Assembly (NCBI GenBank): GCA_964648215.1
Contig: CAZYMF010000004.1
Coordinates: 7,827-71,826 of the forward strand
Direction: 5' to 3'
Length of the DNA stretch: 64,000 nucleotides
From: an uncultured Candidatus Binatia bacterium
GTDB taxonomy: Bacteria > Desulfobacterota > Binatia > HRBIN30 > JACQVA1
The translations under genes and the position numbers were made by a program. Under the pieces are notes generated by a model. It had not been told where the DNA came from. It saw only the letters and a list, made by a program, of their open reading frames with translations, and did no database searches. Below are positions 3,599 to 22,941 of this stretch, piece after piece (position 1 is the first letter of the stretch; every line of letters starts with the position of its first letter).

Positions 3599-3729
3599 CG
3601 ATTCACCGGATAGCAGGCGCGTCCGGGCGGAACAACATACCCGCCGACTGGCCCGATGCCCGGCGGTGGTGCTACGAACGGTCACCGGCGGCCGTCGCGG
3701 CCGGCACGGGAGCAGAGGCAGGAGCCGCT

Positions 3730-4521: not shown

Positions 4522-4546
4522 CCGGCGCGAGAGAGAGGAGGAGGCA

Positions 4547-4951: not shown

Positions 4952-5021
4952 CGGTGGGCATGCCGCGCCGGCGCCGTCCGCGGATTGCAGCGTCCGCGGA
5001 TTTCTGCTGACAAGCACGGAG

Positions 5022-7904
5022 ATGGAGAAGCTGGCGCGCTGGGCGCTCGTGCTGCTGGCGATGGCGGTCGTGCTGTGGGTGCGCACGCGGCCGCTCGCCC
5101 TGCCGATCACCGACGATTGGGCCGATCAACTCCTGCGGCGGCAGCTCGCCTACCGTATCGTTCAGGACGATCGGCACCGGGGTCGCGCGGCATCTCCGGC
5201 GCAGGTGGAACGGGAGGTGCAGTCCTGGATCGACGACCATGCCGAGCGCTTCGACGCGCAGCGTGCGGCCGCGTCGGAGAGTCTGCGCTCGCGCCTGCGC
5301 CACGTCGGGCCCGACGGCCGCGAGCACGTATTCCTCGGCGACGTCGACAGCTACCAATGGCTGCGCGCCGCGCGCAATTATCTCGATCACGGCACCACCT
5401 GCGACGCCGTCGTCGACGGCGAGTGCCGCGACACCCTGGCCGACGCGCCGGTGGGCGCGCGCATGATCTACAACCGCTCGCTGCACATTGCCGCCATCGT
5501 CGCCGTGCACGAGGTGATCACCTTCTTCCATCCCGGCTATCCGCTGTCGTCGAGCTCGTTCTGGGTGCCCGTGCTCGTCGGGGTGCTCGGCGTGCTGCCC
5601 GCCTTCGGCCTCGGCTGGCGCCTGGGCGGCAACGCGGGCGGCTTTTGCGCCGCGCTGCTGGTGGGGCTCGACTCGTCGCTGTTGACGCGCAGCATCGGCA
5701 GCGACAACGACGTGTGGAACGTCGTCCTGCCCTTGTTCCTGTTCTGGGCCGCGGTCGAGGCGCTGGCGGCCGGGAACCGGTGGCGTCGGATCGGCTTCGC
5801 CGTTCTCGCCGGCGTGTTCGCCGGCCTGCACGCGGCGACGTGGCGCGGATGGATCTTCGGCTACGTCGTGTTGCTGGCCGGCCTTGCCGGGACGCTGCTG
5901 TTCCACGCTCTGCGCCTGGCGTGGCAGCGGTGGCGTGGCGTTGCCGGGGCGGCAACCGCGGTCCGCGACGTTGCCGTCGTGCTCGCCGTCTTCTACGTCA
6001 GCGCGGGGGTCTTCACCACGCTTGCCGGCGCGCCGCAGTCCTATCTCGACTTGCCGTTGCGCCTGCTGGGTGGCGGCGTCGCCGAGGCCGCCGCGCCGCC
6101 ACCCAGCGCGGTCGACCTGTGGCCGAGCGCGCTGGCCACCGTTGCCGAGCTGGTGACGCCGAATCTGGGCAACATCGCCGATAGCAAGGGAGGCAAGCTC
6201 GCGCTCTTCGGTGCTCTGCTCGGGCTGTTGCTGTTGCTGCAACCGGAGGCGTGGTGGCGCCGACGCGGTCCCTGGCGCGACGCCTACGCGTCTGTCCTGG
6301 TGGCTGGCGTTGCCGCGGACGCGGTGCTGCTGTTCGCGGCGCCGTCGACCCGGTTCGCCGTCCTGGCTCTGGTGGTGGCGCCTTTGCTCGCGACCGTGCT
6401 GCTGCGGCTGGTCGATCCTGACGCAGAGAGCGAGCGCGCCAACGCGGCGCTCCTGATCGCGGTGTGGTTCCTAGCCGCCTTCTCTCTCAGCTTCGGCGCC
6501 GTGCGCTTTCTACTGCTGCTCGGCCCGCCCTTCGGTCTCGTGCTCGGAGGAGCGGCCGGTCGTCTGCAACGAGCGATCGCATCGGGCGCGCGCCGGCCGG
6601 CCGTTGCCGGGGCCGCGGTGCTCGCCGCCACCCTTCCGTTCGTGCTGCCACCCCTCTGGGGCGGCTACCGCGTCGCGCGCGCCTACGTTCCCAAGATCAG
6701 CGATGCCTGGTGGGGCACGCTGACCAACATCCGTGATCACTCGGCGCCCGATGCCATCGTCGATGCGCTGTGGGACTACGGCTACTGGGTGAAGTACGTG
6801 GCGCAGCGCCGCGTCAGCTGCGACGGCGGCACGCTGTCGACGCACGTGCACCACTGGTTCGGTCGCGCGCTGGTGACGCCGAGCGAGACCGAGAGCATCG
6901 GCCTGCTGCGCATGCTCAACTGCGGCTCCGACGCCACGCCGCACCCGGAGGGAGCCGAGGGAGCGTACGGCAAGATCGTCGCCAAGCTGCACGACCCGAT
7001 CGCCGCCGCCGCGCTGGTGACCGAGCTCGCCAGCCTCGACGAGAACGCGGCGCGCGTGGCGCTGGCGGCAAAAGGCTTCACGGCCGCGGAGCAGGCAAAC
7101 GTGCTGCGCTCCACCCACTGCCGGCCGCCGGAGTCGTTTCTGCTTCTCACCACCGAGCAGCTCGCCACGGCGACGACGTGGATGCAGTTCGGCCGCTGGG
7201 ATCTTGCCAAGGCGTACGTGGCGCAGGTGGCGCCTTACACACCGCAGCAAGAGCTGGTGCCGGAGCTGAGGAAACGCTTCGGCTACAGCGAGGAGAAGGC
7301 AACTTCGCTCTACACGCAGGCGCGCCAACTGCGCTCGCGGAAGGAACGCGAGAACTTCGCCGGACCGTCGGCGTGGTATCTGACGACGCAATGGGTACCC
7401 TGCCGCAGCGAGGCCGGCGGCAAGATGGTCTGCCCGCTGGGAATGACGGACAAGCAGACGGGGGACGTCCTCGAGGCCTTCGTCTACGATCCGGCCGCGC
7501 CCGAGCGCAGCCGACTGCGGGTGCGGCACGCGCCCGGCGGCGCTCTCGCCGCCGGCGTCACGGAGGAAACCCCGGCGGCGCTGTTGCTGGCCGACGCCGG
7601 GGGCGAGCGGGGCGTCACCCTGGGGCCGGCGACCGTGGCCCGGTTCGGCGCCCTGGTCGACGTTCCGAATCACCGGGTGCTGGTCGGCAGCCCGTTTCTG
7701 CTGCGCTCCACCTTCGTGCAGTTGATGTATCTCGATGGCCGCTACGCTCACCGCTACCAGAAGTTCGACGAGCGCGTCGCCTACAACGGCGAGCGCATCG
7801 AGGTGTGGCGGGTGAGGTGGGGAGTCACGGATCGGACCGATCGGACCGATCCGACTGATCGGACGGATCGGTCCGATCGGTCCGATGCCCCGCCCCCCGG
7901 CTGA
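5022..7904 (+). CDS. STT3/PglB/AglB-family oligosaccharyltransferase (GT66-like), 960 aa
   Basis: Polytopic N-terminal half followed by a large soluble C-terminal domain. Motifs: GDVDSYQWLRAARNY (first acidic loop motif), RSIGSDNDVWNVVLPLF (second acidic motif), ALWDYGYWVKYVAQRRVSCDGGT (the WWDYG hallmark followed by a DGGK-like element), and a tail STFVQLMYLDGRY resembling the PglB C-terminus as I recall it. Confidence 0.85.
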   Translation: MEKLARWALVLLAMAVVLWVRTRPLALPITDDWADQLLRRQLAYRIVQDDRHRGRAASPAQVEREVQSWIDDHAERFDAQRAAASESLRSRLRHVGPDGREHVFLGDVDSYQWLRAARNYLDHGTTCDAVVDGECRDTLADAPVGARMIYNRSLHIAAIVAVHEVITFFHPGYPLSSSSFWVPVLVGVLGVLPAFGLGWRLGGNAGGFCAALLVGLDSSLLTRSIGSDNDVWNVVLPLFLFWAAVEALAAGNRWRRIGFAVLAGVFAGLHAATWRGWIFGYVVLLAGLAGTLLFHALRLAWQRWRGVAGAATAVRDVAVVLAVFYVSAGVFTTLAGAPQSYLDLPLRLLGGGVAEAAAPPPSAVDLWPSALATVAELVTPNLGNIADSKGGKLALFGALLGLLLLLQPEAWWRRRGPWRDAYASVLVAGVAADAVLLFAAPSTRFAVLALVVAPLLATVLLRLVDPDAESERANAALLIAVWFLAAFSLSFGAVRFLLLLGPPFGLVLGGAAGRLQRAIASGARRPAVAGAAVLAATLPFVLPPLWGGYRVARAYVPKISDAWWGTLTNIRDHSAPDAIVDALWDYGYWVKYVAQRRVSCDGGTLSTHVHHWFGRALVTPSETESIGLLRMLNCGSDATPHPEGAEGAYGKIVAKLHDPIAAAALVTELASLDENAARVALAAKGFTAAEQANVLRSTHCRPPESFLLLTTEQLATATTWMQFGRWDLAKAYVAQVAPYTPQQELVPELRKRFGYSEEKATSLYTQARQLRSRKERENFAGPSAWYLTTQWVPCRSEAGGKMVCPLGMTDKQTGDVLEAFVYDPAAPERSRLRVRHAPGGALAAGVTEETPAALLLADAGGERGVTLGPATVARFGALVDVPNHRVLVGSPFLLRSTFVQLMYLDGRYAHRYQKFDERVAYNGERIEVWRVRWGVTDRTDRTDPTDRTDRSDRSDAPPPG

Positions 7905-9036
7905 GGAGGGCTTCGCACTCGCCCACGATCCGTGCCGCGGCATCGACGGTTGCCCACTGCCGCAAGCGGCGCGAGGCGGCGGTCCAGCCGGCGGTGTCGC
8001 GCAGCAGCGAGACGAGGCGCGAGGCCAGCGCCTCCACCCGCCACTGCTCCTCGCGCACCCACCAGCCACCGGCCTCGTTGGCCCAGGTCGAAGCGTTCGG
8101 CGTCTGGTGGTCGTCGGCGGCCGACGGCAGCGGTACCAGCAGCGCCGGCAGACCGGCGACGGCGAGCTCGGCGATCGTCGCCGCGCCGGCACGGGCGAGG
8201 GCGAAGTCGGCCCAGCGATAGGCGCCGGCCATGTCGTCGAAGTATCGCTCCACCTGCGCCGCGATGCCCGCCCCGGCGTAGGCGGCAACGACGGGAGCCG
8301 GATCGTTCTCGCCGACCTGATGGCGGACCTCGACCGCGAGGCGACGAGCGGCCAGCTGCCGCGCGAGCTCGGGTGCCTGCCGGTTGAAGAAGCGCGCCCC
8401 CTGTGAGCCGCCGGTGATCAGGAGGTGCGCGGCTCTCTGCGACGGGTGCGGCGACTGGCGCGGCTCGTGGTACAGGGCGGCGATCTCCGGGCGCACCGGG
8501 TTCCCGGTGATGCGCCGGTGCGCCGCGGGGAGCTCGCGGCCGGCGGAGGCGAAGCCGAGGTAGACGCGATCGACGAGGCGGGCGAGCCACTTGTTGGTCA
8601 GCCCCGGCACCACGTTGGCCTCGTGGATCGCGCTGGGGATCCCGAGCAGGCGCGCCGCCAGCAGCGGGCCCGCCGAGGTGTAACCGCCGAAGCCGAGCAC
8701 GAGATGCGTCCCTTGCCGCCGGAACAGACGGCCCGCCTGGGCCGTTGCGGCGATCACGCCGGCGACGGCGCGCGCCTTTCCGGCCAGGCTCGCCCCGAAC
8801 AACGGTGCGCCCGCTACCTGCTCCAGCCGATAGCCGTGCCGCGGCACCAGGCGCGACTCGTATCCGGCGCGGGTACCGAGAAACAGCACGTCGACGTCCG
8901 GTCGGGCTTGGCGATAGGCGGCGGCGACGGCGAGGGCCGGGGAGACGTGCCCGGCGGTGCCGCCGCCGATCATGGCCACCCGCCGCGACGCGGCGGCCGC
9001 GGAAGAGGTGGGCTCGGGATCGGAGTGCGGCGGCAT
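7825..9036 (-). CDS. murG: MurG-like GT28 UDP-GlcNAc transferase (paralog-like context, outside any dcw cluster)
   Basis: This is the C-terminal 403 codons of the 813-aa track ORF. MIGGGTAGHVSPALAVAAAY, GFGGYTSAGPLLAARLLGIPSAIHEAN, LLITGGSQGA and ARAGAATIAELAVAGLPALLVPLP are classical MurG motifs. Start ATG at 9036 (or the inner ATG near 8973). The upstream part of the track ORF is antisense to the next gene. Confidence 0.85.
   Translation of the reverse strand: MPPHSDPEPTSSAAAASRRVAMIGGGTAGHVSPALAVAAAYRQARPDVDVLFLGTRAGYESRLVPRHGYRLEQVAGAPLFGASLAGKARAVAGVIAATAQAGRLFRRQGTHLVLGFGGYTSAGPLLAARLLGIPSAIHEANVVPGLTNKWLARLVDRVYLGFASAGRELPAAHRRITGNPVRPEIAALYHEPRQSPHPSQRAAHLLITGGSQGARFFNRQAPELARQLAARRLAVEVRHQVGENDPAPVVAAYAGAGIAAQVERYFDDMAGAYRWADFALARAGAATIAELAVAGLPALLVPLPSAADDHQTPNASTWANEAGGWWVREEQWRVEALASRLVSLLRDTAGWTAASRRLRQWATVDAAARIVGECEALLSRGAGHRTDRTDPSDQSDRSDRSDP
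7831..7886. repeat. 9-bp tandem repeat (ATCGGWCCG x6) forming a perfect long hairpin at convergent gene ends
   Basis: Units ATCGGACCG ATCGGACCG ATCCGACTG ATCGGACGG ATCGGTCCG ATCGGTCCG. Positions 7831-7851 are the exact reverse complement of 7866-7886 (21 bp), extendable by 2 bp inward. It lies inside both the STT3 ORF (stop 7902-7904) and the murG-like ORF (stop 7827-7825). Confidence 0.9.
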
Positions 9037-9150
9037 CGGCGTGCGACTGTAACGGGGCGCCGGGGGGCGAGGCAATCGCCCCGCGCCGGCGCACGCCGTT
9101 CGGCACCGGCGCCGTTCTCGTGTATAGGCGGCGTGGCGCTGTCCTTTCCC

Positions 9151-10224
9151 ATGTGGACTTACGGTCTCCTTTGCGGCACGGCGGCTGCGGTGGCGTTTCT
9201 CCTCACACCGGCGGTGCGCCTGCTGGCGTTGCATTTCGGCGCCGTCGACGAGCCCGGCGGCCGGCGGGCGCACCGCGGGCGGATCCCGCGCCTGGGCGGC
9301 CTGGCCGTGTTGGGTGCCGGCCTCCTCGGGCTGTTGTTGCCGTGGCTGGGCGGGGTGCCGGTGTTCGCCGCGCTGATCGCCCGCGGCTGGAGGCTGGGCT
9401 GGTTCTTGGCGGGAACGCTGCTGATCACCGCTGTCGGCGTTTTCGACGACTGCCGCGAGGCGACGCCGTGGCCCAAGCTCGCGTTCGAGACGCTGGCGGC
9501 GGTGGTCGCGGTCGCCGGCGGCTTCGGCTTCTCCGCCGTGTCGAATCCGTTCACCGGCGGCTCCATCGAGCTCGGCGCGCTGGGAGCCTTGCTCTCCGTG
9601 CTGTGGATCGTCGGCATCACCAACGCCTTCAACCTCATCGACGGACTGGACGGTCTGGCGGCCGGCGTTGCCCTGATCGCCGCGGCGACCATCTTCGTGC
9701 TCGCGGGGGTGCAGGCGCGCCCGGACGCGGCCGTGCTCACCGCCGTGCTCGCCGGCGCGCTGCTCGGCTTTCTGCGCTACAACTTTCATCCCGCCTCGAT
9801 CTTCCTTGGCGACTCCGGCAGCTTGTTGCTCGGCTACGTGCTCTCGGTGCTGTCCATCCAAGGGCAGCAAAAGGTCCCGACCGTCGTCGTCCTGCTGGTG
9901 CCGATCCTGGTGCTCGCCCTGCCGATCGTGGAGACCGTGGTCACCGTCGTGCGCCGCTACGGTCGCGAGGGCGCGGCGGGTCTCTTCCACGCCGATCGTG
10001 AGCACATCCACCACCGCCTGGTGATGCGGGGCATGGCGCCGCGGCGCGCGGTGTTGCTGCTCTACGGTATCTGCAGCGGCCTCGGCCTGCTGGCGGTGCT
10101 CGCCGTGGTCGCCGGCGGACCGGGCAGCGCGGTGCTCGTGCTGGTCGCCGCCCTCGCCGGCTATTTCGGGCTGCGCCGTCTGGGGTACGGCTTCGTGCGC
10201 GGCGGAACCCTGACCCATGACTGA
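9151..10224 (+). CDS. Polyprenyl-phosphate GlcNAc-1-phosphate transferase (WecA/MraY PNPT family)
   Basis: Starts at ATG 9151 (MWTYGLLCG). About 10 TM segments; VFDDCRE acidic motif; NAFNLIDGLDGLAAG; FLGDSGSLLLGY; HIHHRLV. Divergent from the murG-like gene. Confidence 0.85.
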   Translation: MWTYGLLCGTAAAVAFLLTPAVRLLALHFGAVDEPGGRRAHRGRIPRLGGLAVLGAGLLGLLLPWLGGVPVFAALIARGWRLGWFLAGTLLITAVGVFDDCREATPWPKLAFETLAAVVAVAGGFGFSAVSNPFTGGSIELGALGALLSVLWIVGITNAFNLIDGLDGLAAGVALIAAATIFVLAGVQARPDAAVLTAVLAGALLGFLRYNFHPASIFLGDSGSLLLGYVLSVLSIQGQQKVPTVVVLLVPILVLALPIVETVVTVVRRYGREGAAGLFHADREHIHHRLVMRGMAPRRAVLLLYGICSGLGLLAVLAVVAGGPGSAVLVLVAALAGYFGLRRLGYGFVRGGTLTHD

Positions 10225-10963
10225 AGCGTCACCCGGGCCCTCGTCGCCCACGGCGGGCTCGACCACACTGGTCCTGCTGTCCTACGACGAGCGCGAGGCC
10301 CTCGAGCGGCTCCTGCCGCTGATCCCCCTCCACCTCTTCGAGCGGGTCGTCGCCATCGACCCGGGCTCGACCGACGGCACGTTGGCTCTGTACGAGGCGC
10401 GCGGGATTCCGTGCGTGATTCAACCCGCGCGCGGGCGCGGCAATGCGTTCTTGCTGGCGGCGGAGATCGTCGACAGCGAGCGGGTGGTCTTCTTCAGCGC
10501 CGACGGCAACGAGAACCCGGAAGATCTGCCCCTGCTGCTCCGCTATCTCGACGAGGGCAACGACCTGGTCATCGGCGGCCGCTTCCTCCGCCCCGGATCG
10601 TGCAGCGACAACAGCGACGACCCCTGGCGGTTGCGCCGCGCCGGCTCGATCGGCTTCAGCCTGGTCGTCCGGCTGCTGTGGGGCTGCGACGTGTGGGACT
10701 CGTGCAACGGCTTTCGCGGCTTCCGCGTCGAGGCCATGCGGCGCCTGCGTCTGGACGCGCCGTTGCACGAGATCGAGCTGCAGAGCACCATCCGCGCCGC
10801 CAAGCTGGGCATGAAGATCAAGGAGTTCCCGACCCGCGAGCTGCGGCGGATGGGCGGCTGGCGCAAGCCGACCGCCGGGACCTGGACCCTGGGTTGGAGG
10901 ACGGCTCTCTATCTCGTGCGCGAGATCCTCATCGGCCGGCGCTTCGATGGCTCGCCGCGCTGA
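10217..10963 (+). CDS. Small GT2 glycosyltransferase, polyprenyl-phosphate sugar synthase-like (Dpm1/ArnC-like size and layout)
   Basis: LVLLSYDEREALERLLPLI, AIDPGSTDGT, FFSADGNENPEDLP, NGFRGFR. 248 aa and soluble. Its start overlaps the preceding stop by 8 nt and its end overlaps the next start. Confidence 0.75.
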   Translation: MTEASPGPSSPTAGSTTLVLLSYDEREALERLLPLIPLHLFERVVAIDPGSTDGTLALYEARGIPCVIQPARGRGNAFLLAAEIVDSERVVFFSADGNENPEDLPLLLRYLDEGNDLVIGGRFLRPGSCSDNSDDPWRLRRAGSIGFSLVVRLLWGCDVWDSCNGFRGFRVEAMRRLRLDAPLHEIELQSTIRAAKLGMKIKEFPTRELRRMGGWRKPTAGTWTLGWRTALYLVREILIGRRFDGSPR

Positions 10964-12422
10964 CCCCCCGGCCGCGCCCGCCGCCGTCCGCGGCTGGAAG
11001 CGGCACCTGCCCGTCCTGCTGCTGTGTCTGTTCTTCGTCGGGCTCTACGCCACGACGTTGCGGTCGCTGGGGATGCTGGGATGGGACGAGTCGGAGTACG
11101 CCTCGCTGGGCCGCTCGGTGCTGCGGGGCGAGGGATTCTCGATCAGCGGGCGGCCCAACTCGCTGCGCCCGCCGCTGCTGCCGCTGGCGGTGACGGCGAG
11201 CTTGCTGGTGACCGGCAGCGCCAGCGACGTCGCCGCGAAGCTGCCCAACCTCTCCTTCAGCGCGCTCGCCCTCCTGGTCGTCTACGCGGCGATGGCGCGC
11301 GAGCGGGACCGCCTCACCGCCTGGATCGCCACCGCCTTTCTCGGGCTGATGCCGACGTTCTGGCTCTTCACCCCCAGGTTGCTGACCGAGATTCCGTTCA
11401 TGGCGTTCTTCACCGCCGCGATCGCGTGCTTCTATTTCGGCCTCTACCGTGACGGGCGTTTCTTCTATGTCAGCTGGATCTCCGTCGCGCTGGCGTTGCT
11501 GAGCCGCTACACGGCGGTGCTGTTCGGGCCCATCGCGCTGGCTTTCACGCTGATGGCGCTTGCCGCCGCCGACGCCCGCCAACGGATCCGTGGGCGGCAC
11601 TTCTGGCTCTCCCCCTTCGCCGGCCTGGCGCTGTTGCTGCCCTGGCTGCTGCGCCAGCAGCTCGTCTTCGGCAGCGCCCTGGTCGGGTTTCAGCATGCCT
11701 CCGGGCAGCTGCAGGCGTACCTGCCGGGGGTCTCGATGCCGTGGTACTTCTACCCGGCCCACGTCCCGGGGATGGTCTCGCCGCTGCTGTGCGCGCCGTT
11801 GCTCGTCGGCATCGTCTGGGCGGTGCGGACGCGGGACCGCTTTGCCTTGCACTGCCTCTTCGTGGTCGGGTTCGTCTTGCTGTGGTTCAGCGCCTATCGC
11901 TTCAAGGAGATCCGCATGGCGACGTCGACGTTGCCCTTCCTGGCCATGGTGGCGGCGCTCGGTGTGACGCAGGTCGTTCTGCCGCGGCGGCTGACGGCAC
12001 CCGTGCTCGGCGGGGTCGCCGTCTTCCTGATCGGTGTCTTCGCCTTCTCCTTCGTCAGGACGCACCGATTCTTCTCGCGCGCGGTGACGCTCGGCTATCC
12101 CTCCTTCACCGAAGCGATGCGTGCGGTGCGCGAGCGCACGGCGCCCAACACCGTCCTGATGGGCGCCAGCGTGCCGCAGATCTTCTGGTACGCCGATCGT
12201 CACGTCGTCGATTTCCCCGACGAGAAGGATCTCCCCGGGGCCTTGCGGCGGTGCGACTGGGTGGTCGTGGTCAACTTCGAGCGCGGACAGAAGCCCTATG
12301 CGCGCCAGTTGCTGGCCAAGGTGACCCAGGAGGACGGTGCGCAAGGGAACGCGCTCGTCTCCCGCGATGTGCGTTTCACCACGGTGTTGATTCGCGCCTC
12401 GCTGTTGCGGGAGCGGTTGTAG
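10947..12422 (+). CDS. GT-C fold glycosyltransferase of ArnT/PMT (GT83/GT39) type
   Basis: 491 aa and polytopic. The first periplasmic loop carries LGWDESEYASLGRS (a DE-x-x-Y motif as in ArnT/PMT_2 proteins). The C-terminal soluble region is about 110 aa. Confidence 0.8.
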   Translation: MARRADPPAAPAAVRGWKRHLPVLLLCLFFVGLYATTLRSLGMLGWDESEYASLGRSVLRGEGFSISGRPNSLRPPLLPLAVTASLLVTGSASDVAAKLPNLSFSALALLVVYAAMARERDRLTAWIATAFLGLMPTFWLFTPRLLTEIPFMAFFTAAIACFYFGLYRDGRFFYVSWISVALALLSRYTAVLFGPIALAFTLMALAAADARQRIRGRHFWLSPFAGLALLLPWLLRQQLVFGSALVGFQHASGQLQAYLPGVSMPWYFYPAHVPGMVSPLLCAPLLVGIVWAVRTRDRFALHCLFVVGFVLLWFSAYRFKEIRMATSTLPFLAMVAALGVTQVVLPRRLTAPVLGGVAVFLIGVFAFSFVRTHRFFSRAVTLGYPSFTEAMRAVRERTAPNTVLMGASVPQIFWYADRHVVDFPDEKDLPGALRRCDWVVVVNFERGQKPYARQLLAKVTQEDGAQGNALVSRDVRFTTVLIRASLLRERL

Positions 12423-12443
12423 CCGGCCGCGGCGGTTCCCCTC

Positions 12444-13808
12444 TTGGCGGGGCTGTGCCATAAACCAACGCGATCGCGGAGACGTCCCCGGCATGGCGAT
12501 GACGAAAATCCTGGCGGCGGCCGCGCGGGTTTGAGCGACTTGCCGCGACCGCAGCGAGTGGCCGTCGTCGTGCTCGGTGATCTCGGGCGCAGCCCGCGGA
12601 TGCAGTACCACGCGCAGGCGCTGGCCGGCGCCGGCGTCGAGGTGGATCTGATCGGCTACGAGGGCAGCGAGCTGCCGCGCGAACTGCGCGAGAGCCCGCG
12701 CCTGCGCTGTCATTTGCTGCGCGCGAGCCGGCCGGCGCCGCGCCGGCCGCGGCTGCTCTTCGTCGCCGGCTCCGCCCTGCGCGTGCTGCGGCAATGCGGC
12801 CAACTGCTGTGGGTGCTGCTGTTTCGCATCGACCGACCCAACGTCGTCGTGGTGCAGAATCCGCCGGCGGTGCCGACGCTGTTGCTGGCCGTGCTGGCGG
12901 CGCGGGTGCGCCGGGCCAAGCTGGTGGTCGATTGGCACAATTTCGGGTACGCGATGCTCGCTCTGTCGCTCGACCCGCATCATCCGCTCGTTCGCGTCGC
13001 GCGCTGGTACGAGCGCCGTCTGGCGCGCTTTGCCGACGCGCACCTGTGCGTGTCGCGGGCGATGCAGGCGACGATGCGAACGCAGTGGGGCGTCGCGGCG
13101 GCGGTGCTCTACGATCGACCCGCGGCGCGCTTTCAAGCGGCGTCGGCCGAGGCGCGGCGGGAGCTGCGGCAACGGCTCGCAGAGGCGGTTCCCGAAATGG
13201 TCGTCGCCCGGCCGCCGGCCATCGTCGTCAGCCCGACGAGCTGGACGGCGGACGAGGACTTCGATCTCTTGCTCGACGCCGTTCAACGCTGCGACCGCTT
13301 GCTGTCCGAGCCCGCGCCAGGGTCCGAGCCGGAGCGCGTGGCGCTCCTCGTTCTTCTCACCGGCCGGGGCCCGCTGCGCGCGGCTTACGAGGAACGGATG
13401 CGCCGGATGCCGCTGCGACGGATTCGCCTGCGCGCGCTGTGGCTGAGCCCGCCGGACTATCCGCTGCTGCTGGCGGCCGCCGATCTCGGCCTCTGCCTCC
13501 ACCGCTCGGCCGCGGGAGTAGATCTGCCGATGAAGGTCAGCGACATGTTCGGCGCCGGCTTGCCCGTGTGCGCGTTCGACTACGGGCCCTGTCTCGCCGA
13601 GCTGGTGCACGCGGGCGAAAACGGGCTGCTGTTTTCCTCGGCCGAAGAGCTGGCGCGGCAGCTTTGCCGAGTCGCGGGCGAGCTTCCCGGCGGTGCGTCG
13701 TGGCTGGAGCGGTTGCGGGAGAACGTCCTTGCGCACCGCCAGACGTGGGAGGAAGGTTGGCAGCGGGAGGCCTGGCCGGTGCTCTCCCGGCTGCTGGGGG
13801 CCGAGTAG
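12444..13808 (+). CDS. ALG1-like beta-1,4-mannosyltransferase (GT33)
   Basis: Segment-by-segment resemblance to yeast Alg1 as I recall it: VLGDLGRSPRMQYHA, VQNPPAVPTL, VVDWHNFGY, VLYDRPAARFQ, VSPTSWTADEDFDLLLDA, LTGRGPL, LWLSPPDYPLLLAAADLGLCLHRSAAGVDLPMKVSDMFGAGLPVCA. The true start is uncertain; in-frame TTG 12531, TTG 12540 and GTG 12558 are alternatives. Confidence 0.85.
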   Translation: MAGLCHKPTRSRRRPRHGDDENPGGGRAGLSDLPRPQRVAVVVLGDLGRSPRMQYHAQALAGAGVEVDLIGYEGSELPRELRESPRLRCHLLRASRPAPRRPRLLFVAGSALRVLRQCGQLLWVLLFRIDRPNVVVVQNPPAVPTLLLAVLAARVRRAKLVVDWHNFGYAMLALSLDPHHPLVRVARWYERRLARFADAHLCVSRAMQATMRTQWGVAAAVLYDRPAARFQAASAEARRELRQRLAEAVPEMVVARPPAIVVSPTSWTADEDFDLLLDAVQRCDRLLSEPAPGSEPERVALLVLLTGRGPLRAAYEERMRRMPLRRIRLRALWLSPPDYPLLLAAADLGLCLHRSAAGVDLPMKVSDMFGAGLPVCAFDYGPCLAELVHAGENGLLFSSAEELARQLCRVAGELPGGASWLERLRENVLAHRQTWEEGWQREAWPVLSRLLGAE

Positions 13809-13844
13809 GATTCGACCCGGTCGCCCCACCTTGGTAGAGCTGGC

Positions 13845-15089
13845 ATGGGAAATGGTTCCGAAAGGCAGCGCTTGAAGATCGCCATCCTTCATCCCGACCT
13901 CGGCATCGGCGGCGCCGAGCGGCTGATCGTCGATGCCGCCGTGCAGCTCCAGGCTGCCGGACACCGGGTCACGATCTTCACCAATCACCACGACCCGGCG
14001 CACTGCTTCGCGCCCACCGCCGACGGCACCCTGGAGGTGCGAGTCTTCGGCGCGTCTCTCCCGAGCCACGTCGCGCAGCATCTGCGCGCGCCCTGTGCCG
14101 TGACGAGGATGCTCTACCTCTGCGGGGCGGCGGCCCGCCACGGCCCGTTCGACGTCTTCCTCTGCGACCTGGTGGCGCACGTGATCCCGGCGCTCAAGTG
14201 GCTCGCCCGGACCCCGGTCGTCTTCTACTGTCACTTTCCCGATCAGTTGCTGGTCACGCGCGATCGGTGGCCGTATCGCCTCTATCGCCTGCCCATCGAT
14301 CGTCTCGAGCAATGGGCCACGGGGCACGCCGATCGCGTCCTGGTCAACAGCCGCTTCACCGCGGCGATGTTTGGGAAGGCGTTTCCCCGTTTGCACTGGC
14401 TCACTCCCGACGTTCTCTATCCCGCCACCGGCGACGTCGACGGCTGCGTCGAAACGACCCCGGGGGACGAGCCCATGTTGCTGGCGATCGGGCGCTATGA
14501 TCGTTCCAAGAAGATGGTTCTCGCCGTCGAAGCCCTGGCGCACTTGCGCCAATGCCTGCCCGCGCCCGCGGCGGACAAGGTGCGCCTGGTGATCGCCGGT
14601 CACTACGACGCCGGCTCTCGCGAGAACGTGCTGGCGATGCGGGAGCTGGAGTCGGCCGTGCGCGCCTTCGGGCTGCAGGAGCAGGTGACGCTGCGGCGCT
14701 CGCTGTCGGATGCGGAGCGCATCGATCTCCTGGAGCGCTGCTCGTGCCTCGTCCACACCATGCCCAACGAGCACTTCGGCCTGGTTCCCGTCGAGGCGAT
14801 GGCCGCGGGCAGACCGGTGGTCGCGGTGCGCCGGGGCGGGGTGATGGAGACGGTGCGCCACGGCGAGACGGGCCTGCTGTGCGAGCCCAACCCGGAGGCT
14901 TTTGCCGCGGCCCTGGCGCGCTTGCTGCGCGATCGCGACGAGGCCGCGCGCATGGGGCGGGCGGCGCGGCTGCGTGCTCGGACGCTCTTTTCCCGCGCCG
15001 CCTTCGGCGAGCGTCTCGACGCCATCGTTCGCGAGGTGGCGGCCAAGAAGGCCGGCGCCGAGAGGGGAGCGGCGTGCTCGGCAGCCTGA
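13845..15089 (+). CDS. ALG2-like alpha-1,3/1,6-mannosyltransferase (GT4)
   Basis: [82 protein letters not shown] and [19 protein letters not shown] match the Alg2 pattern ([21 protein letters not shown] ... [10 protein letters not shown]) from memory. Confidence 0.85.
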   Translation: [414 protein letters not shown]

Positions 15090-16921
15090 AGAAATGCCTC
15101 CGCTTTCTCAGCCCCAGCGACCGCTGGCGCTGGGCGAGCTTGATCCCGCTGATCGTCGTGGCCGCCGCGATGGAGGCCGTCGGCGCCGCGGGCGTGTTCC
15201 TGCTCATCAAGCTCACCGCCGATCCGTCGCAGGTGTCCTCGGTGCCGGTCATCTCCGGTCTCTACGCGCGGCTGCCGTGGCACGGCGACAAGGCGATCAT
15301 TCTCGAAGCCACGTTTCTGATCGCGTCGTACTACCTGCTGAAGAACGCCTCGCTGGCCCTGATCTCGGCGCGGCAGAACAGGGTCGTCGGCGAATCGGTG
15401 GCGCGGCTGGGGCGCGAGATGCTGAAGGGCTACCTCGCGGTGCCTTTCGCCTTCCACCTGCGGCGCAACTCCGCCGATCTGATCCGCAACGCAACCGACT
15501 CGGTCGACCGCGTGTTCCGGTTCGTCCTGGCATCGATCGTGGCCGGGTGCGCCGAGGCTCTGATCGTCCTCGGCATCATCGTCGTGCTGCTGACGACGGC
15601 GCCTGGGCTGGCGCTCACCGCGGTGGTCATCCTGTTCGCGCTGCTGGCCGGTGTCATCCGCGGCACGCGACGGGTTCTGCTGCAATGGGGGCGCGAGGAT
15701 CAGCGGTTGCGGGGAGCGGCGCTGCAGACCCTGCAGCAGGCGCTGGCGGGCGTGAAGGAGGTGAAGCTCCGCGGCTGCGAGCCCTTCTACTTCGAGCGTT
15801 TCTGGGCGCAGGAGGACGATCTGGCGCGGGCGCGCGCGCGCTACGACACGTTGTCGATGGCCTCGCGGCTGCTGATCGAGGCGGTCTTCGTGTGTGGCCT
15901 GCTGCTGGTGATCACCCTGGTGACCCTGCGGGGGCGGGGCCCGGACCTCGTCCCGTTGCTCGGCCTCTACGCCTACGCGGGTTTTCGCATCATTCCCTCG
16001 CTCAATCGGATTCTCATGTACGTCAGCAGCATTCGCTACGGCGCCGGCGCCGTCGAGCCGCTCTACGAGGACTGGCAGATGTTCCTTCGCCTGCCGCCGC
16101 CACCGGAGGCCGTCTCCGCGCGTGCCGTGACCTTCGCCGACCGGCTGGTTCTCGACGGCGTGTCGTATCAGTACGAGGGGGCGTCGGCTGCCGCGCTGGA
16201 GAACGTCTCGCTGGCGATTCGACCCGGCGAATCGATCGGGATCGTCGGCCCGACGGGAGCCGGGAAGAGCACCCTGATCGACGTCGTGCTCGGGTTGCTG
16301 GTCCCCTCGCGGGGGCGGGTCACGGCCGACGGCGTGAACATCTTCGAGGCGCTGGCGGCGTGGCAACGGAAGATCGGCTATGTCCCCCAAACGGTGCATC
16401 TGACCGATGATACCCTGCGCCGCAACATTGCCTTCGGCATCGAGGACGACGGGATCGACGACGACAAGATCCGGCGGGCGCTGCGCATGGCGCAGCTGGA
16501 GGATGTCGTCGGCTCTCTTGCCCTCGGGCTGGAGACCACGATCGGTGAGCGCGGCGTGCGCCTGTCCGGCGGCGAGCGCCAGCGGGTTGCGATCGCCCGC
16601 GCCCTCTACCTGCAGCCCGAGGTGCTGGTGTTCGACGAGGCGACGTCGGCATTGGATGCGCAAACCGAGCGCGAGCTGACGCAGGCGATCGAAGCGCTGC
16701 AGGGGCAGAAGACGCTGATCATCGTGGCGCACCGCCTGAGCACGGTGCGGCGCTGCGACCGGCTGGTCTTTCTGCGACAGGGTCGCGTGGCCGACGTCGG
16801 CTCGTTCGACGAGCTGCTCGGGCGCAACGCCGCCTTCCGCGCGATGGCGGCGCCGAGCGGCGACGAGGGAATCGCGGCGATGCCGCCGCCGCTCGGTGCC
16901 GGCCGCAAAGCGACCGGGTAG
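15074..16921 (+). CDS. ABC transporter, fused permease/ATPase (MsbA/PglK-type exporter), candidate lipid-linked oligosaccharide flippase
   Basis: GTG 15074 (VLGSLKKCL) overlaps the ALG2-like stop by 16 nt. Six-TM exporter domain, then Walker [10 protein letters not shown], signature LSGGERQR and Walker [13 protein letters not shown]. The track ORF start at 14552 is an upstream extension across the previous gene. Confidence 0.85.
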
Positions 16922-16934
16922 AGCGCTTCGCCGT

Positions 16935-17474
16935 TCAGCCAGCGCCGGCCGCCGCCTGCTTCGGCGGCTGGTGCACGATCACCTGCTTCGGCGTCTCGAG
17001 CGGCGGGTGCGGGTCGGCGAGCAGGCGCTTGGCCTCCTCGCGATCCTTCGCGCCCAGGGCGTGGGTGGTCGTGCAGTACTCGATCAGGATGCCGTTGGGG
17101 TCGACGGTGTAGATCGAGGTGCAGAAGCCGTGGTCGATCTCGGTGACGGCCAGGCCGTGACCGAGCCAGCGCTGCTTGTGCGCCTCGATGTCGTCGAGGT
17201 CCGTGGCGCGGAAGGCGAGGTGGTTGATCCAGATGGGGAGGCCGATGCCGGTGGAGATCGCCGGCGACCACGGCGCGGTGATGCTGTCGTCGTGCAGATC
17301 CCAGAAGGCGATGTAGGTGTCCGGGCTGATCTCGTAGAATACGTGCTTGGCCCAGCCGCCACCTTCGGTGGGTCCGACGACGACCTTGACCAGATCGAAC
17401 CCCATGACCTCGGTGTAGAAGCGATGCGTGGCGTCGATGTCGCGCGTGGCGAACGCGGTATGATGAAAGCCCAT
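16935..17474 (-). CDS. VOC (glyoxalase/bleomycin resistance/dioxygenase) family protein
   Basis: ATG 17474 preceded by AGGAGG. MGFHHTAFATRDIDATHRFYTEVMGF ... INHLAFRATDLDDIEAH show typical VOC beta-alpha-beta-beta-beta modules. Confidence 0.8.
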   Translation of the reverse strand: MGFHHTAFATRDIDATHRFYTEVMGFDLVKVVVGPTEGGGWAKHVFYEISPDTYIAFWDLHDDSITAPWSPAISTGIGLPIWINHLAFRATDLDDIEAHKQRWLGHGLAVTEIDHGFCTSIYTVDPNGILIEYCTTTHALGAKDREEAKRLLADPHPPLETPKQVIVHQPPKQAAAGAG

Positions 17475-17609
17475 GACTCCTCCTGAACGGTGCCCCCAGC
17501 TTGGCAAAGTTCGGCCGCGGACACAACGCTCGTGCCGGCTCGCTCCGTCGCGGGCCCCGGGGTGCCGCCCTTGTTGCGCCGGGCGCCTTGTCGTACACGC
17601 TGAGCGCAG

Positions 17610-22870: not shown

Positions 22871-22941
22871 GCACCGTTACCACGCGCCGCTCGGCAAGAC
22901 ACGTTCGGGCCGCGCGGATCTGTGCTAAGGGGAGCGCGCCG

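What the first reader, a model, noticed from the sequence alone, without database searches (positions are those of the whole stretch)
12444..15089. Adjacent ALG1-like and ALG2-like mannosyltransferases with near full-length motif conservation
The 454-aa protein carries essentially every block I remember from yeast/human ALG1: GDLGRSPRMQYHA, VQNPPAVPTL, DWHNFGY, LYDRPA..FQ, TSWTADEDF, TGRGP, and W..P.DYP.LL..ADLG.CLH.S..G.DLPMKV.DMFG.GLPVCA.

The next gene carries the ALG2 blocks: [36 protein letters not shown]..E. GT33 is, to my knowledge, essentially a eukaryotic/archaeal family.

The ALG1-like protein appears to lack the N-terminal TM anchor. The region before VAVVVLGD is short and basic, and the start codon is ambiguous (TTG 12444, TTG 12531, TTG 12540, GTG 12558).
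Basis: partly seen in the sequence, partly recalled or inferred. Interest (0 to 1): 0.75.

Follow-up and report, generated by a model that had tools for sequence, protein, structure and literature searches.

The report
Bacterial ALG1/ALG2 genes in N-glycosylation locus
Two neighbouring bacterial genes are true counterparts of the eukaryotic enzymes ALG1 and ALG2 that build the mannose core of N-linked glycans; such bacterial enzymes were shown to work in a 2025 preprint, but here they sit in a conserved locus with every other part needed to make that core and probably attach it to proteins.

Summary
ORF 12444-13808 is 37% identical over its full length to Xenopus ALG1 (E 9e-109). ORF 13845-15089 is 45% identical to mammalian ALG2 (E 2e-109).

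The rarity premise is wrong. ALG1 homologues occur in many bacterial phyla, including Binatia, Methylomirabilota, Acidobacteriota and Myxococcota. A 2025 preprint (10.1101/2025.10.15.682550) showed that such bacterial homologues make Man1GlcNAc2 and Man3GlcNAc2 and complement yeast mutants. The genes themselves are therefore a new member of a known kind.

The genomic context is not mentioned in that preprint. The window encodes:
- an STT3/AglB-like oligosaccharyltransferase;
- a MurG-like GT28;
- a WecA-like initiator;
- a Dol-P-Man-synthase-like GT2 plus a GT-C;
- ALG1 and ALG2;
- a PglK/MsbA-like ABC flippase.

In 37 related loci with full flanks, ALG1 is linked to GT28 in 30, the ABC transporter in 28, ALG2 in 22 and the OST in 14. 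Natural ALG1-ALG2 fusion proteins also exist.

The best reading is an undecaprenyl-linked, eukaryote-type Man3GlcNAc2 assembly line that probably feeds N-glycosylation.

The true ALG1 start is TTG 12531, TTG 12540 or GTG 12558. It is not TTG 12444, and it is not the ATG 12600 used in the public gene call.

The parts
5022..7904 (+). STT3/AglB-like oligosaccharyltransferase (960 aa, about 11 predicted TM segments plus a large C-terminal periplasmic domain). Motifs: DVDSYQW (aa 107-113), SDNDVW (aa 227-232, DxD), TVAEL (aa 373-377, TIxE-like), LWDYGYW (aa 583-589, WWDYG).
   Evidence: Pfam STT3 scores 95 bits against a cutoff of 24.5, and STT3-PglB_core also hits. D109, D228, E376 and W584 are invariant in 19 homologues. 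The family profile aligns these regions to fungal STT3, PglB, AglB and human STT3A at E 4e-9 to 2e-6. 731 clusters at 50% identity match at E <= 1e-30. A full-length relative at 30% identity comes from a genuine DPANN archaeon.
7825..9036 (-). MurG-like GT28 glycosyltransferase (403 aa). It is proposed to add the second GlcNAc, making GlcNAc2-PP-undecaprenol, the same job as ALG13/ALG14. It is transcribed divergently from the WecA-to-ABC gene row.
   Evidence: Pfam Glyco_transf_28 N- and C-terminal domains hit. TIGR01133 murG scores 266.6 bits against a cutoff of 250.25, and PDB MurG matches at E 1e-54. A GT28 gene lies next to ALG1 in 59 of 80 loci and in 30 of 37 with full flanks. In the annotated loci L081, L084 and L085 it has no cell-division/cell-wall (dcw) neighbours. 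ALG1-linked GT28 proteins score 218-288 bits on the murG model, straddling its cutoff.
9151..10224 (+). WecA/MraY-family polyprenyl-phosphate HexNAc-1-phosphate transferase (357 aa; ALG7 analogue), the initiating enzyme.
   Evidence: Pfam Glycos_transf_4 scores 143 bits. TIGR02380 wecA scores 132.7 bits, below its cutoff, so sugar specificity is inferred. The true start, ATG 9151, was set from the GC3 rise and the first TM segment. A WecA-like gene is linked to ALG1 in 28 of 80 loci.
10217..10963 (+). Soluble GT2 of the polyprenyl-phosphate hexose synthase type (DPM1/AglJ-like, 248 aa). It overlaps the WecA stop by 8 nt.
   Evidence: Pfam Glycos_transf_2 hits. The best NCBIfam hits are AglJ (73.6 bits) and dolichyl-phosphate hexose transferase. 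The only PDB sequence hit is Pyrococcus Dol-P-Man synthase 5mlz, E 3e-6. The gene junction is shown.
10947..12422 (+). GT-C membrane glycosyltransferase (491 aa, about 10 TM; PMT_2 type, with a sub-threshold ALG9-like hit). It overlaps the GT2 gene by 17 nt. It is proposed to add a sugar from polyprenyl-P-hexose on the periplasmic side.
   Evidence: Pfam PMT_2 scores 46.7 bits against a cutoff of 26.1. Glyco_transf_22 scores 21.6 bits, below its cutoff of 23.8. There is no PDB sequence hit. The gene is present only in the window and a few Binatia loci (L001, L002, L066).
12531..13808 (+). ALG1 orthologue (GT33 beta-1,4-mannosyltransferase), with no TM anchor. The start is most likely TTG 12531 or TTG 12540, with GTG 12558 possible. 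The 12444-12530 stretch of the listed ORF is probably non-coding.
   Evidence: Identity to Xenopus ALG1 is 37%, E 9e-109. There are 52 invariant columns across 19 bacterial homologues, 3 vertebrate ALG1 sequences and the window protein. GC3 is 0.59 for 12444-12530 against 0.90 and 0.87 downstream. Homologues carry 8-14 residues before GDxGRSPRM. The public gene call (P0001, 402 aa) starts at M53 and cuts off the conserved Gly loop.
13845..15089 (+). ALG2 orthologue (GT4 alpha-1,3/alpha-1,6-mannosyltransferase, 414 aa), with the G-rich loop GIGGAER and the EX7E motif EHFGLVPVE including the conserved Val.
   Evidence: Identity is 45% to mammalian ALG2 and 42% to Klebsormidium ALG2. The motifs are defined and tested by mutagenesis in the preprint. 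An NJ tree groups the protein with ALG2 and far from a generic GT4.
15074..16921 (+). ABC exporter of the MsbA/PglK type (615 aa), the proposed flippase for the lipid-linked oligosaccharide. Its GTG start overlaps the ALG2 stop by 16 nt.
   Evidence: Pfam ABC_membrane and ABC_tran hit. NCBIfam gives MsbA 286.7 bits and PglK 265.6 bits, both below their cutoffs. The gene is linked to ALG1 in 51 of 80 loci and 28 of 37 with full flanks.

Best explanation
The two ORFs encode bacterial orthologues of ALG1 and ALG2. They are peripheral GT-B enzymes without membrane anchors that work one after the other at the cytoplasmic face of the inner membrane.

Proposed pathway:
1. The WecA-like enzyme makes GlcNAc-PP-undecaprenol.
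2. The MurG-like GT28 adds a second GlcNAc, giving lipid-linked chitobiose.
3. ALG1 adds a beta-1,4-mannose from GDP-mannose.
4. [quoted passage not shown]
5. The ABC transporter flips the product to the periplasm.
6. The Dol-P-Man-synthase-like GT2 and the GT-C may add one more sugar there.
7. The STT3/AglB-like enzyme transfers the glycan to asparagine residues of exported proteins.

Shown here: orthology, motif conservation, gene order and its conservation across phyla. Shown by others for related bacterial homologues, not for these proteins: the ALG1 and ALG2 activities. Inferred: the chitobiose step by GT28, flipping, the periplasmic extension, and protein N-glycosylation as the end use.
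For: Orthology and specificity:
- Full-length identity of 37% and 45% to authentic ALG1 and ALG2, E about 1e-109.
- Reciprocal specificity within the window.
- 52 invariant ALG1 columns shared with vertebrate sequences.
- The ALG2 GIGGAER and EX7E(Val) signatures are present. The preprint shows they are required for activity.

Activity in relatives:
- ALG1 homologues from Gammaproteobacteria, Polyangia and Binatia, and ALG2 homologues from Gammaproteobacteria and Polyangia, complement yeast alg1/alg2 deletions; these, plus a weakly active Deltaproteobacteria ALG2, make M1GN2 or M3GN2 on GlcNAc2-PP-phytanyl.

Operon structure:
- Coding overlaps of 8, 17 and 16 nt, and a 36-nt ALG1-ALG2 gap, join WecA through the ABC gene.

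Conserved neighbourhood in 80 loci from about 10 phylum-level groups:
- GT28 in 59, ABC in 51, ALG2 in 38, WecA in 28, OST in 28.
- Independent gene calls on L081, L084 and L085 show the same core.

Other support:
- Natural ALG1-ALG2 fusion proteins of about 830 aa exist, one of them in a locus with STT3, GT28 and an ABC gene.
- The OST has all catalytic motifs.
Against: - No biochemical data exist for these particular proteins. In the preprint 2 of 5 bacterial ALG1 homologues were inactive, and of 4 ALG2 homologues one was inactive and one only weakly active.
- OST linkage is lineage-restricted: 14 of 37 full-flank loci, and none in Methylomirabilota or Acidobacteriota. The ALG1 module therefore need not always feed N-glycosylation.
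- The GT28 passes the MurG equivalog cutoff, so a role as ordinary MurG is not formally excluded.
- The WecA and ABC proteins score below their family cutoffs, so substrate assignments are by analogy.
- The OST is on a separate transcription unit, convergent with GT28.
- No GDP-mannose synthesis genes were identified among the window genes that were scanned.
Confidence: 0.7

Rival explanations
1. The ALG1/ALG2 module does build a mannosylated chitobiose on undecaprenyl pyrophosphate, but the product feeds a non-protein glycoconjugate such as a surface polysaccharide, a lipoglycan or an LPS-like molecule. On this reading the STT3-like gene next door is functionally separate.
For: The OST is absent within 10 kb of ALG1 in all Methylomirabilota and Acidobacteriota loci, and in 23 of 37 full-flank loci overall. 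In the window the OST lies in a different transcription unit. A second glycan locus with a Wzy_C (O-antigen-ligase-type) protein lies 10 kb downstream.
Against: The STT3-like gene lies beside the GT28/ALG1 genes in Binatia, 'delta', Verrucomicrobiia, Gammaproteobacteria and Thermodesulfobacteriota loci, and next to the ALG1-ALG2 fusion. The only function I know of for STT3-family enzymes is N-glycosylation (own knowledge). The Wzy_C gene is not conserved near ALG1 elsewhere.
Confidence: 0.2
2. The two proteins are ALG1/ALG2-family glycosyltransferases whose donor or acceptor specificity has changed, for example a different nucleotide sugar or a non-chitobiose acceptor such as lipid II or a GlcNAc-MurNAc lipid. 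The glycan would then not be the eukaryotic core.
For: Two of five bacterial ALG1 homologues and one of four ALG2 homologues showed no activity in the canonical assays. The linked GT28 is very MurG-like.
Against: Motif conservation with eukaryotic enzymes is near complete. The closest genome-resolved relatives are Binatia (56-58% identity), and the tested Binatia ALG1 was active. A WecA-type initiator is encoded in the same operon.
Confidence: 0.08
3. The genes are eukaryotic contamination of the assembly, or a recent eukaryote-to-bacterium transfer.
For: Identity to eukaryotic proteins is high for a bacterial gene.
Against: - GC is 70% with GC3 about 0.87, the same as the whole window.
- The genes have overlapping bacterial-style junctions.
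- Homologues lie on multi-megabase bacterial contigs in many phyla.
- In an NJ tree the eukaryotic ALG2 sequences are monophyletic (98 of 100 bootstraps), with the bacterial sequences paraphyletic around them rather than nested inside any eukaryotic group.
Confidence: 0.02

Closest known systems
Bacterial ALG1 and ALG2 homologues characterised by Xu et al., bioRxiv 10.1101/2025.10.15.682550 (Gammaproteobacteria, Polyangia, Binatia, Deltaproteobacteria, Methylomirabilota)
   Same: Same protein families and the same bacterial phyla. The same signature motifs are present (GIGGAER, EX7E with Val). The expected activities are beta-1,4-ManT on GlcNAc2-PP-lipid and dual alpha-1,3/alpha-1,6-ManT.
   Different: The window proteins themselves are untested, and their identity to the tested proteins is unknown because those sequences are not held. 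The preprint's main text does not contain 'gene cluster', 'operon', 'PglB', 'STT3' or 'synten'. The conserved locus and the fusion proteins are therefore additional to it.
Eukaryotic ALG1 (GT33) and ALG2 (GT4) of the ER dolichol pathway
   Same: Full-length homology at 37-45% identity with conserved catalytic blocks. The order of action is consecutive. Physical coupling in eukaryotes (the Alg1-Alg2 complex cited in Lombard 2016) is mirrored by gene adjacency and by natural fusions in bacteria.
   Different: There is no N-terminal TM anchor on ALG1. The genes are encoded in an operon. The lipid carrier is presumably undecaprenyl rather than dolichyl. No ALG11-like gene lies in the window locus, although an extra GT4 follows the fusion gene in L081.
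Campylobacter jejuni pgl N-glycosylation locus (PglC/A/J/H/I, PglK, PglB)
   Same: The logic is the same: a phosphoglycosyl transferase initiator, cytoplasmic GT-B enzymes building a lipid-linked oligosaccharide on a polyprenyl pyrophosphate, an ABC flippase (PglK-like, 265.6 bits), and a single-subunit STT3-family OST.
   Different: The glycan differs: a GlcNAc2-Man core is predicted instead of a bacillosamine-based heptasaccharide. The GTs are ALG orthologues, not Pgl enzymes. The OST is not PglB-like: the single sequence gives no PglB hit at E <= 1, and its full-length relatives include an archaeal DPANN STT3.
Engineered E. coli Man3GlcNAc2 pathway (yeast Alg13/14, Alg1 and Alg2 with host WecA and PglB; own knowledge, Valderrama-Rincon et al. 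2012)
   Same: The enzyme set and order are the same: WecA, a GlcNAc transferase, ALG1, ALG2, flipping, OST. The window locus looks like a natural version of this synthetic design.
   Different: It is natural rather than engineered. It uses a MurG-like single polypeptide in place of Alg13/14, a dedicated ABC flippase, and its own AglB-like OST.
Archaeal Agl pathways (AglB; Agl24 chitobiose synthase)
   Same: The OST clade is related to archaeal STT3/AglB (30% identity to a DPANN protein). The chitobiose core idea parallels Agl24 (eLife 2022, PMC8993221; title and abstract seen).
   Different: According to the preprint, archaea lack reliable ALG1 homologues and the tested archaeal ALG2-like proteins were inactive. 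The host here is bacterial.

Membership tests
ALG1 / CAZy GT33 (chitobiosyldiphosphodolichol beta-mannosyltransferase) | Full-length sequence homology to authenticated eukaryotic ALG1 | tested here: met
   37% identity over 457 aligned positions to X. laevis ALG1, E 9e-109. 36-40% identity to three vertebrate ALG1 proteins in the alignment.
ALG1 / CAZy GT33 (chitobiosyldiphosphodolichol beta-mannosyltransferase) | Reciprocal specificity: ALG1 rather than another GT-B family is the best match in both directions | tested here: met
   Eukaryotic ALG1 proteins hit only this ORF in the window. Generic models score far lower, with WcaI at 39.9 bits. Close homologues are named beta-1,4-mannosyltransferase by JGI.
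ALG1 / CAZy GT33 (chitobiosyldiphosphodolichol beta-mannosyltransferase) | Conserved family blocks (GDxGRSPRM, QNPP, DWHN, YDRPA, SWTxDEDF, TGxGP, DLPMK) | tested here: met
   All blocks are present. There are 52 invariant columns across 19 bacterial homologues, 3 vertebrate sequences and the window protein.
ALG1 / CAZy GT33 (chitobiosyldiphosphodolichol beta-mannosyltransferase) | N-terminal transmembrane anchor (a feature of the eukaryotic enzymes, not of catalysis) | tested here: not met
   No hydrophobic N-terminal segment was found. All 120 closest homologues start 8-14 residues, or a short non-hydrophobic stretch, before the Gly loop.
ALG1 / CAZy GT33 (chitobiosyldiphosphodolichol beta-mannosyltransferase) | Transfer of beta-1,4-mannose from GDP-Man to GlcNAc2-PP-polyprenol | not testable with these tools
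   Shown for Gammaproteobacteria, Polyangia and Binatia homologues in the preprint, not for this protein.
ALG2 (GT4 alpha-1,3/1,6-mannosyltransferase) | Full-length homology to authenticated eukaryotic ALG2, separate from generic GT4 | tested here: met
   45% identity to Ictidomys ALG2 and 42% to Klebsormidium ALG2, E about 1e-110. Identity to the window's other GT4 is 25%. The NJ tree places the protein in the ALG2 group.
ALG2 (GT4 alpha-1,3/1,6-mannosyltransferase) | N-terminal G-rich loop G-I-G-G-A-E-R | tested here: met
   [12 protein letters not shown] at aa 16-27. The motif and its mutational importance are described.
ALG2 (GT4 alpha-1,3/1,6-mannosyltransferase) | EX7E motif E-H-F-G-I-V-P-L-E with the conserved Val | tested here: met
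   EHFGLVPVE at aa 309-317, with Val at the sixth position (criterion).
ALG2 (GT4 alpha-1,3/1,6-mannosyltransferase) | [quoted passage not shown] | not testable with these tools
   Shown for three of four tested bacterial homologues.
OST-dependent N-glycosylation locus (pgl/agl type) | STT3-family oligosaccharyltransferase with catalytic DxD, TIxE/SVSE and WWDYG motifs | tested here: met
   Pfam STT3 scores 95 bits. The residues are invariant in 19 homologues. They align to PglB, STT3 and AglB.
OST-dependent N-glycosylation locus (pgl/agl type) | Initiating polyprenyl-phosphate phosphoglycosyl transferase and a lipid-linked oligosaccharide flippase in the locus | tested here: met
   A WecA-family gene is present, as is an MsbA/PglK-like ABC gene. 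Both score below the equivalog cutoffs, so the assignment is at family level only.
OST-dependent N-glycosylation locus (pgl/agl type) | Conserved genomic linkage of the glycan-assembly genes with the OST | tested here: inconclusive
   The OST lies within 10 kb in 14 of 37 full-flank loci. It is present in Binatia-type, Verrucomicrobiia and Gammaproteobacteria loci and absent in Methylomirabilota and Acidobacteriota loci.
OST-dependent N-glycosylation locus (pgl/agl type) | Asn-linked glycoprotein product | not testable with these tools
   No proteomic or glycan data are available.
MurG (housekeeping lipid II synthase) | Score above the TIGR01133 equivalog cutoff, and location in the dcw cell-wall cluster | tested here: inconclusive
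   The window protein scores 266.6 bits against a cutoff of 250.25. Counting the window protein, 4 of 9 ALG1-linked GT28 proteins are above the cutoff and 5 below. No dcw genes neighbour the gene in the window, L081, L084 or L085. Whether a second murG exists in these genomes could not be checked.

The most novel reading that the evidence does not exclude
Several uncultivated bacterial lineages (Binatia and relatives, and some Verrucomicrobiia, Gammaproteobacteria and Thermodesulfobacteriota) may naturally run a complete eukaryote-type N-glycosylation pathway. It would consist of a WecA/ALG7-like initiator, a MurG-derived ALG13/14-like chitobiose synthase, ALG1, ALG2, an ABC flippase, an optional Dol-P-Man-synthase-like GT2 plus GT-C periplasmic extension, and an AglB-like OST that transfers Man3GlcNAc2 (or an extended form) to Asn. 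If so, the whole cytosolic half of the eukaryotic pathway, not only ALG1 and ALG2, would exist as one transferable bacterial gene block that could have been donated during eukaryogenesis. It would also provide a native bacterial OST already adapted to the eukaryotic core glycan.
Probability: 0.45. Interest if true: 0.85.

Novelty: new member of a known kind. Interest (0 to 1): 0.6.

Why it matters
In 2016 the origin of ALG1 was called unknown and possibly a eukaryotic innovation (Lombard, PMC4973528). The 2025 preprint moved it to bacteria but did not ask what these enzymes do in their bacterial hosts.

The conserved locus described here suggests an answer that can be tested directly: a native bacterial assembly line for the Man3GlcNAc2 core, in several lineages coupled to an STT3-family transferase.

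That matters in two ways:
- **Eukaryogenesis.** It bears on whether the cytosolic half of the pathway could have arrived as one block of genes.
- **Glyco-engineering.** It offers anchor-free ALG1/ALG2 enzymes, a single-chain chitobiose synthase, a matched flippase, and an OST that may prefer the eukaryotic core.

Tried and rejected
- **PDB sequence searches.** Searches with the ALG1-like protein and the GT-C found nothing. No solved ALG1 or ALG2 appeared.
- **Source organism.** The look-up of the public ALG1 gene call P0001 found no contig on record. Cluster look-ups gave no organism names. The ALG2 protein is found only on two 2.6-kb metagenome contigs. The source organism stays unidentified. 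The closest genome-resolved relatives are Binatia, with ALG1 56-58% identical and GT2 69% identical in L002.
- **Preprint sequences.** The preprint's supplementary sequence tables are not held, so identity to the tested enzymes could not be computed.
- **Obtaining eukaryotic references.** I used human ALG1 and ALG2 sequences recalled from memory only as bait. A concatenated ALG1+ALG2 query returned only ALG1 proteins. A second query joining the window ALG2 to recalled human ALG2 was needed to get authentic ALG2 sequences. All comparisons in this report use database proteins, not the recalled sequences.
- **Promoter and terminator scan.** The scan of 3000-17600 gave no promoter-like sites and fewer terminator-like sites than shuffled sequence, so it is uninformative.
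- **Apparent ALG6/8-ALG2 fusions.** P0311, P0313 and P0284 looked like such fusions. On inspection P0311 looks like a gene-calling artefact on a eukaryotic contig with split ALG6/8 fragments, so I rejected it as a bacterial feature.
- **Wzy_C-TPR gene downstream.** It is not conserved near ALG1 in other genomes, so I did not count it as part of the system.
- **Literature.** Six of the eight full-text searches combined OST, PglB or STT3 terms with ALG1/ALG2 or the relevant bacterial phyla. They found no paper describing this locus. That covers only the held library.

Full report
**Observation**

The window has about 70% G+C throughout.

Pfam and NCBIfam see only generic GT4/GT1-type domains. 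The PDB holds no sequence relative of the first protein. I therefore fetched authentic eukaryotic proteins from the large protein collection, using remembered human sequences only as bait. All comparisons below use the named database proteins that came back.

**Identity of the two proteins**

- The first protein is 37% identical to Xenopus laevis ALG1 over 457 aligned positions, E 9e-109.
- The second is 45% identical to a mammalian ALG2 (E 2e-109) and 42% identical to the ALG2 of the streptophyte alga Klebsormidium (E 8e-111).
- In the reverse direction, eukaryotic ALG1 proteins hit only the first ORF in the whole window. ALG2 proteins hit the second ORF at about 280-310 bits, against 40-55 bits for the next GT4 gene.
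- An alignment of the window ALG1 with 19 bacterial homologues and 3 vertebrate ALG1 proteins has 52 invariant columns. These include the G-loop, QNPP, DWHN, SWTxDEDF and DLPMK blocks.
- The ALG2-like protein carries the two signatures that a 2025 preprint showed by mutagenesis to be needed for ALG2 activity: the loop GIGGAER, and EX7E with its valine, here EHFGLVPVE.
- In a neighbour-joining tree rooted on another GT4 from the window, eukaryotic ALG2 proteins are monophyletic in 98 of 100 bootstraps. The bacterial sequences, including the window protein, are paraphyletic around them. This is a rough tree, but it argues against contamination or a recent transfer from a eukaryote. So do the uniform base composition and the overlapping gene junctions.

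**Start codon and anchor**

- Third-position G+C is 0.59 for 12444-12530. It is 0.90 for 12531-12800 and 0.87 for 12531-13808, so the first 29 codons of the listed ORF are probably not coding.
- The 120 closest homologues typically carry 8-14 residues before GDxGRSPRM. This fits TTG 12531 (15 residues) or TTG 12540 (12 residues) best; GTG 12558 (6 residues) remains possible.
- The public gene call for this very protein (P0001, 402 aa) starts at Met53 (ATG 12600). That removes the first strand and the conserved Gly loop. Several homologues show the same truncation, so it is most likely an annotation error.
- Neither the window protein nor any homologue has an N-terminal membrane anchor.

**What is already known**

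- Lombard (2016, PMC4973528) could not find prokaryotic relatives of Alg1 and considered it a possible eukaryotic innovation.
- Xu et al. (bioRxiv 10.1101/2025.10.15.682550, October 2025) found 204 bacterial ALG1 homologues and no reliable archaeal one.
- They showed that ALG1 homologues from Gammaproteobacteria, Polyangia and Binatia complement a yeast alg1 deletion and make Man1GlcNAc2 on GlcNAc2-PP-phytanyl.
- They also showed that bacterial ALG2 homologues make Man3GlcNAc2.
My own search agrees. It found 2732 homologues with E <= 0.001 among the 8000 scored candidates; all 120 listed carry only bacterial or generic names, and JGI already labels many 'beta-1,4-mannosyltransferase'. In addition, 112 species-representative bacterial genomes encode a relative.
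- The two genes are a new member of a known kind.

**The locus**

The surroundings are the more informative part. Reading outwards from the two genes:

- An STT3-family oligosaccharyltransferase (5022-7904).
- A MurG-like GT28 on the opposite strand (7825-9036).
- A WecA-family initiating transferase (9151-10224).
- A soluble GT2 whose only solved relative is Pyrococcus dolichol-phosphate-mannose synthase (10217-10963).
- A PMT_2-type GT-C membrane transferase (10947-12422).
- ALG1, then ALG2.
- An MsbA/PglK-like ABC exporter (15074-16921).

The genes from WecA to the ABC transporter are joined by overlaps of 8, 17 and 16 nt and one 36-nt gap, plus a gap of about 110 nt before ALG1.

The OST has all catalytic hallmarks of the STT3 superfamily: DVDSYQW, SDNDVW (DxD), TVAEL (TIxE-like) and LWDYGYW. 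The key residues are invariant in 19 homologues. A profile of these homologues aligns the same regions to fungal STT3, Campylobacter PglB, archaeal AglB and human STT3A at E 4e-9 to 2e-6.

This OST is not a PglB. The single sequence finds no PglB at E <= 1. The clade is large, with 731 clusters at 50% identity matching at E <= 1e-30. One full-length relative at 30% identity lies on a contig that is clearly archaeal, carrying eIF-1A, diphthamide synthase and RFC; its source calls it Nanoarchaeota.

**Conservation of the locus**

I fetched 80 loci around ALG1 homologues from species-representative genomes: Binatia, unclassified 'delta' and other Proteobacteria MAGs, Methylomirabilota/Rokubacteria, Acidobacteriota, Polyangia, Verrucomicrobiia, Phycisphaeraceae, Gammaproteobacteria and Thermodesulfobacteriota. 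I then searched them with the window's proteins.

Linkage to ALG1:

| Neighbour gene | All 80 loci | 37 loci with at least 8 kb on both sides |
|---|---|---|
| MurG-like GT28 | 59 | 30 |
| ABC exporter | 51 | 28 |
| ALG2 | 38 | 22 |
| OST | 28 | 14 |
| WecA-like | 28 | 13 |

- The GT28 gene usually sits immediately upstream of ALG1 and divergent from it. ALG2 usually sits immediately downstream.
- OST linkage is found in the Binatia-type, Verrucomicrobiia, Gammaproteobacteria and Thermodesulfobacteriota loci. It is absent from all Methylomirabilota and Acidobacteriota loci.
- Independent gene calls with precomputed Pfam hits show the same core. L084 has STT3, GT28, GT2 | ALG1, ALG2, ABC. L085 has GT28 | ALG1, ALG2, ABC. 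Neither has cell-wall (dcw) genes next to the GT28.
- Proteins of about 830 aa are natural ALG1-ALG2 fusions, about 50% identical to each window protein. One of them lies between a GT28/STT3 pair and a further GT4 plus an ABC gene (L081).
- Gene fusion, adjacency and conserved order all point to consecutive action of the two enzymes. This matches the physical Alg1-Alg2 complex of eukaryotes mentioned by Lombard.

**Proposed mechanism**

1. The WecA-like enzyme loads GlcNAc-1-P on undecaprenyl phosphate.
2. The MurG-like GT28 adds a beta-1,4-GlcNAc. This is the chemistry MurG performs on lipid I and that the MurG-related ALG13/14 pair performs in eukaryotes.
3. ALG1 adds beta-1,4-Man.
4. ALG2 adds alpha-1,3- and alpha-1,6-Man.
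5. The ABC exporter flips Man3GlcNAc2-PP-lipid to the periplasm.
6. In this window and a few Binatia loci, the Dol-P-Man-synthase-like GT2 and its translationally coupled GT-C could add a further hexose on the periplasmic side. This would formally resemble the lumenal Dol-P-Man-dependent steps of eukaryotes.
7. The STT3/AglB-like enzyme transfers the glycan to Asn.

Orthology, motifs and synteny are shown here. The ALG1 and ALG2 activities are shown by others for relatives only. Steps 1, 2, 5, 6 and 7 are inferred.

**Weak points**

- The GT28 scores just above the MurG equivalog cutoff: 266.6 bits against 250.25. Counting the window protein, ALG1-linked GT28 proteins range from 218 to 288 bits, with 4 of 9 above the cutoff. 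I could not check for a second murG copy in these genomes.
- The WecA and ABC assignments are at family level only.
- The OST is on its own transcription unit and is not linked to ALG1 in two large phyla. The ALG1 module may therefore serve another glycoconjugate in those lineages.
- Some bacterial homologues were inactive in the preprint's assays.

**Novelty and score**

The finding as given, adjacent ALG1-like and ALG2-like genes in a bacterium, is real but no longer new in kind. The preprint's main text contains no mention of 'gene cluster', 'operon', 'PglB', 'STT3' or 'synten'. Six of my eight full-text searches combined OST terms with ALG1/ALG2 or the relevant phyla, and they found no paper describing the locus.

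Within the limits of the held library, the following appear to be undescribed:
- the conserved GT28-ALG1-ALG2-ABC core;
- its frequent coupling to an AglB-like OST;
- the ALG1-ALG2 fusions.

These features turn a sequence curiosity into a testable hypothesis: a natural bacterial pathway for the eukaryotic N-glycan core. I score interest at 0.6.

Noticed in passing
window 7825-7904 (tandem repeat 7830-7886): The 3' ends of the convergent OST and MurG-like genes overlap by 80 nt inside a short tandem repeat (period 9, 6.3 copies). The repeat encodes (T/S)DR-type low-complexity tails on both strands: OST ...TDRTDRTDPTDRTDRSDRSD, and GT28 ...TDRTDPSDQSDRSDRSDP. It is unclear whether both tails are really translated.
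   Followed up: partly
window 19244-29528: A second glycan-related gene group lies here. It contains an NAD-dependent sugar epimerase/dehydratase, a type I phosphodiesterase, two GT4 genes (21698-22870 on the minus strand; 24205-25338 on the plus strand), a second WecA/MraY-family transferase (25330-26370, minus strand) and a 1001-aa Wzy_C (O-antigen-ligase-type) protein with TPR repeats (26523-29528). The Wzy_C gene is not conserved near ALG1 in other genomes.
   Followed up: partly
P0270, P0291, P0293, P0295, P0300, P0307, P0325; locus L081 10001-12496: Natural single-chain ALG1-ALG2 fusion proteins of about 830 aa exist (ALG1 at the N-terminus, ALG2 at the C-terminus, about 50% identical to the window proteins). 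In L081 the fusion gene sits next to STT3, GT28, an extra GT4 (possibly ALG11-like) and an ABC gene.
   Followed up: yes
window 12600 (public gene call P0001); also P0004, P0034, P0059, P0080, P0084, P0094, P0108, P0114: Public gene calls for several bacterial ALG1 homologues start at the internal Met of GRSPRMQYHA. This deletes the conserved first strand and Gly loop, and it looks like a systematic start-site error on GC-rich genomes with non-ATG starts.
   Followed up: partly
P0480 / locus L086 10001-12955: A DPANN (Nanoarchaeota) archaeal STT3 is 30% identical over its full length to the window OST (E 4e-118). The locus has archaeal marker genes, plus GT2 genes and a PMT_2 GT-C nearby. This suggests the bacterial OST clade is related to a specific archaeal AglB group.
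   Followed up: partly
window 3730-4951: A SAM-dependent methyltransferase (3730-4521) and a DUF6632 protein (4433-4951) lie directly upstream of the OST on the same strand and may be co-transcribed with it. Neither is conserved in the 80 related loci.
   Followed up: partly
P0311, P0313, P0284; locus L087: These proteins combine an ALG6/ALG8-family Pfam domain with ALG2. The one contig inspected has fragmented ALG6/8 gene calls and looks like eukaryotic DNA with merged gene models rather than a bacterial fusion.
   Followed up: partly
window 53202-55518 and 58254-60581: Three sizeable ORFs with coding-like GC3 (379 aa, 338 aa, and 775 aa on the minus strand) have no Pfam hit at E <= 1e-6. A 239-aa ORF with high GC3 on the opposite strand (59053-59772) overlaps the 775-aa ORF.
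   Followed up: no
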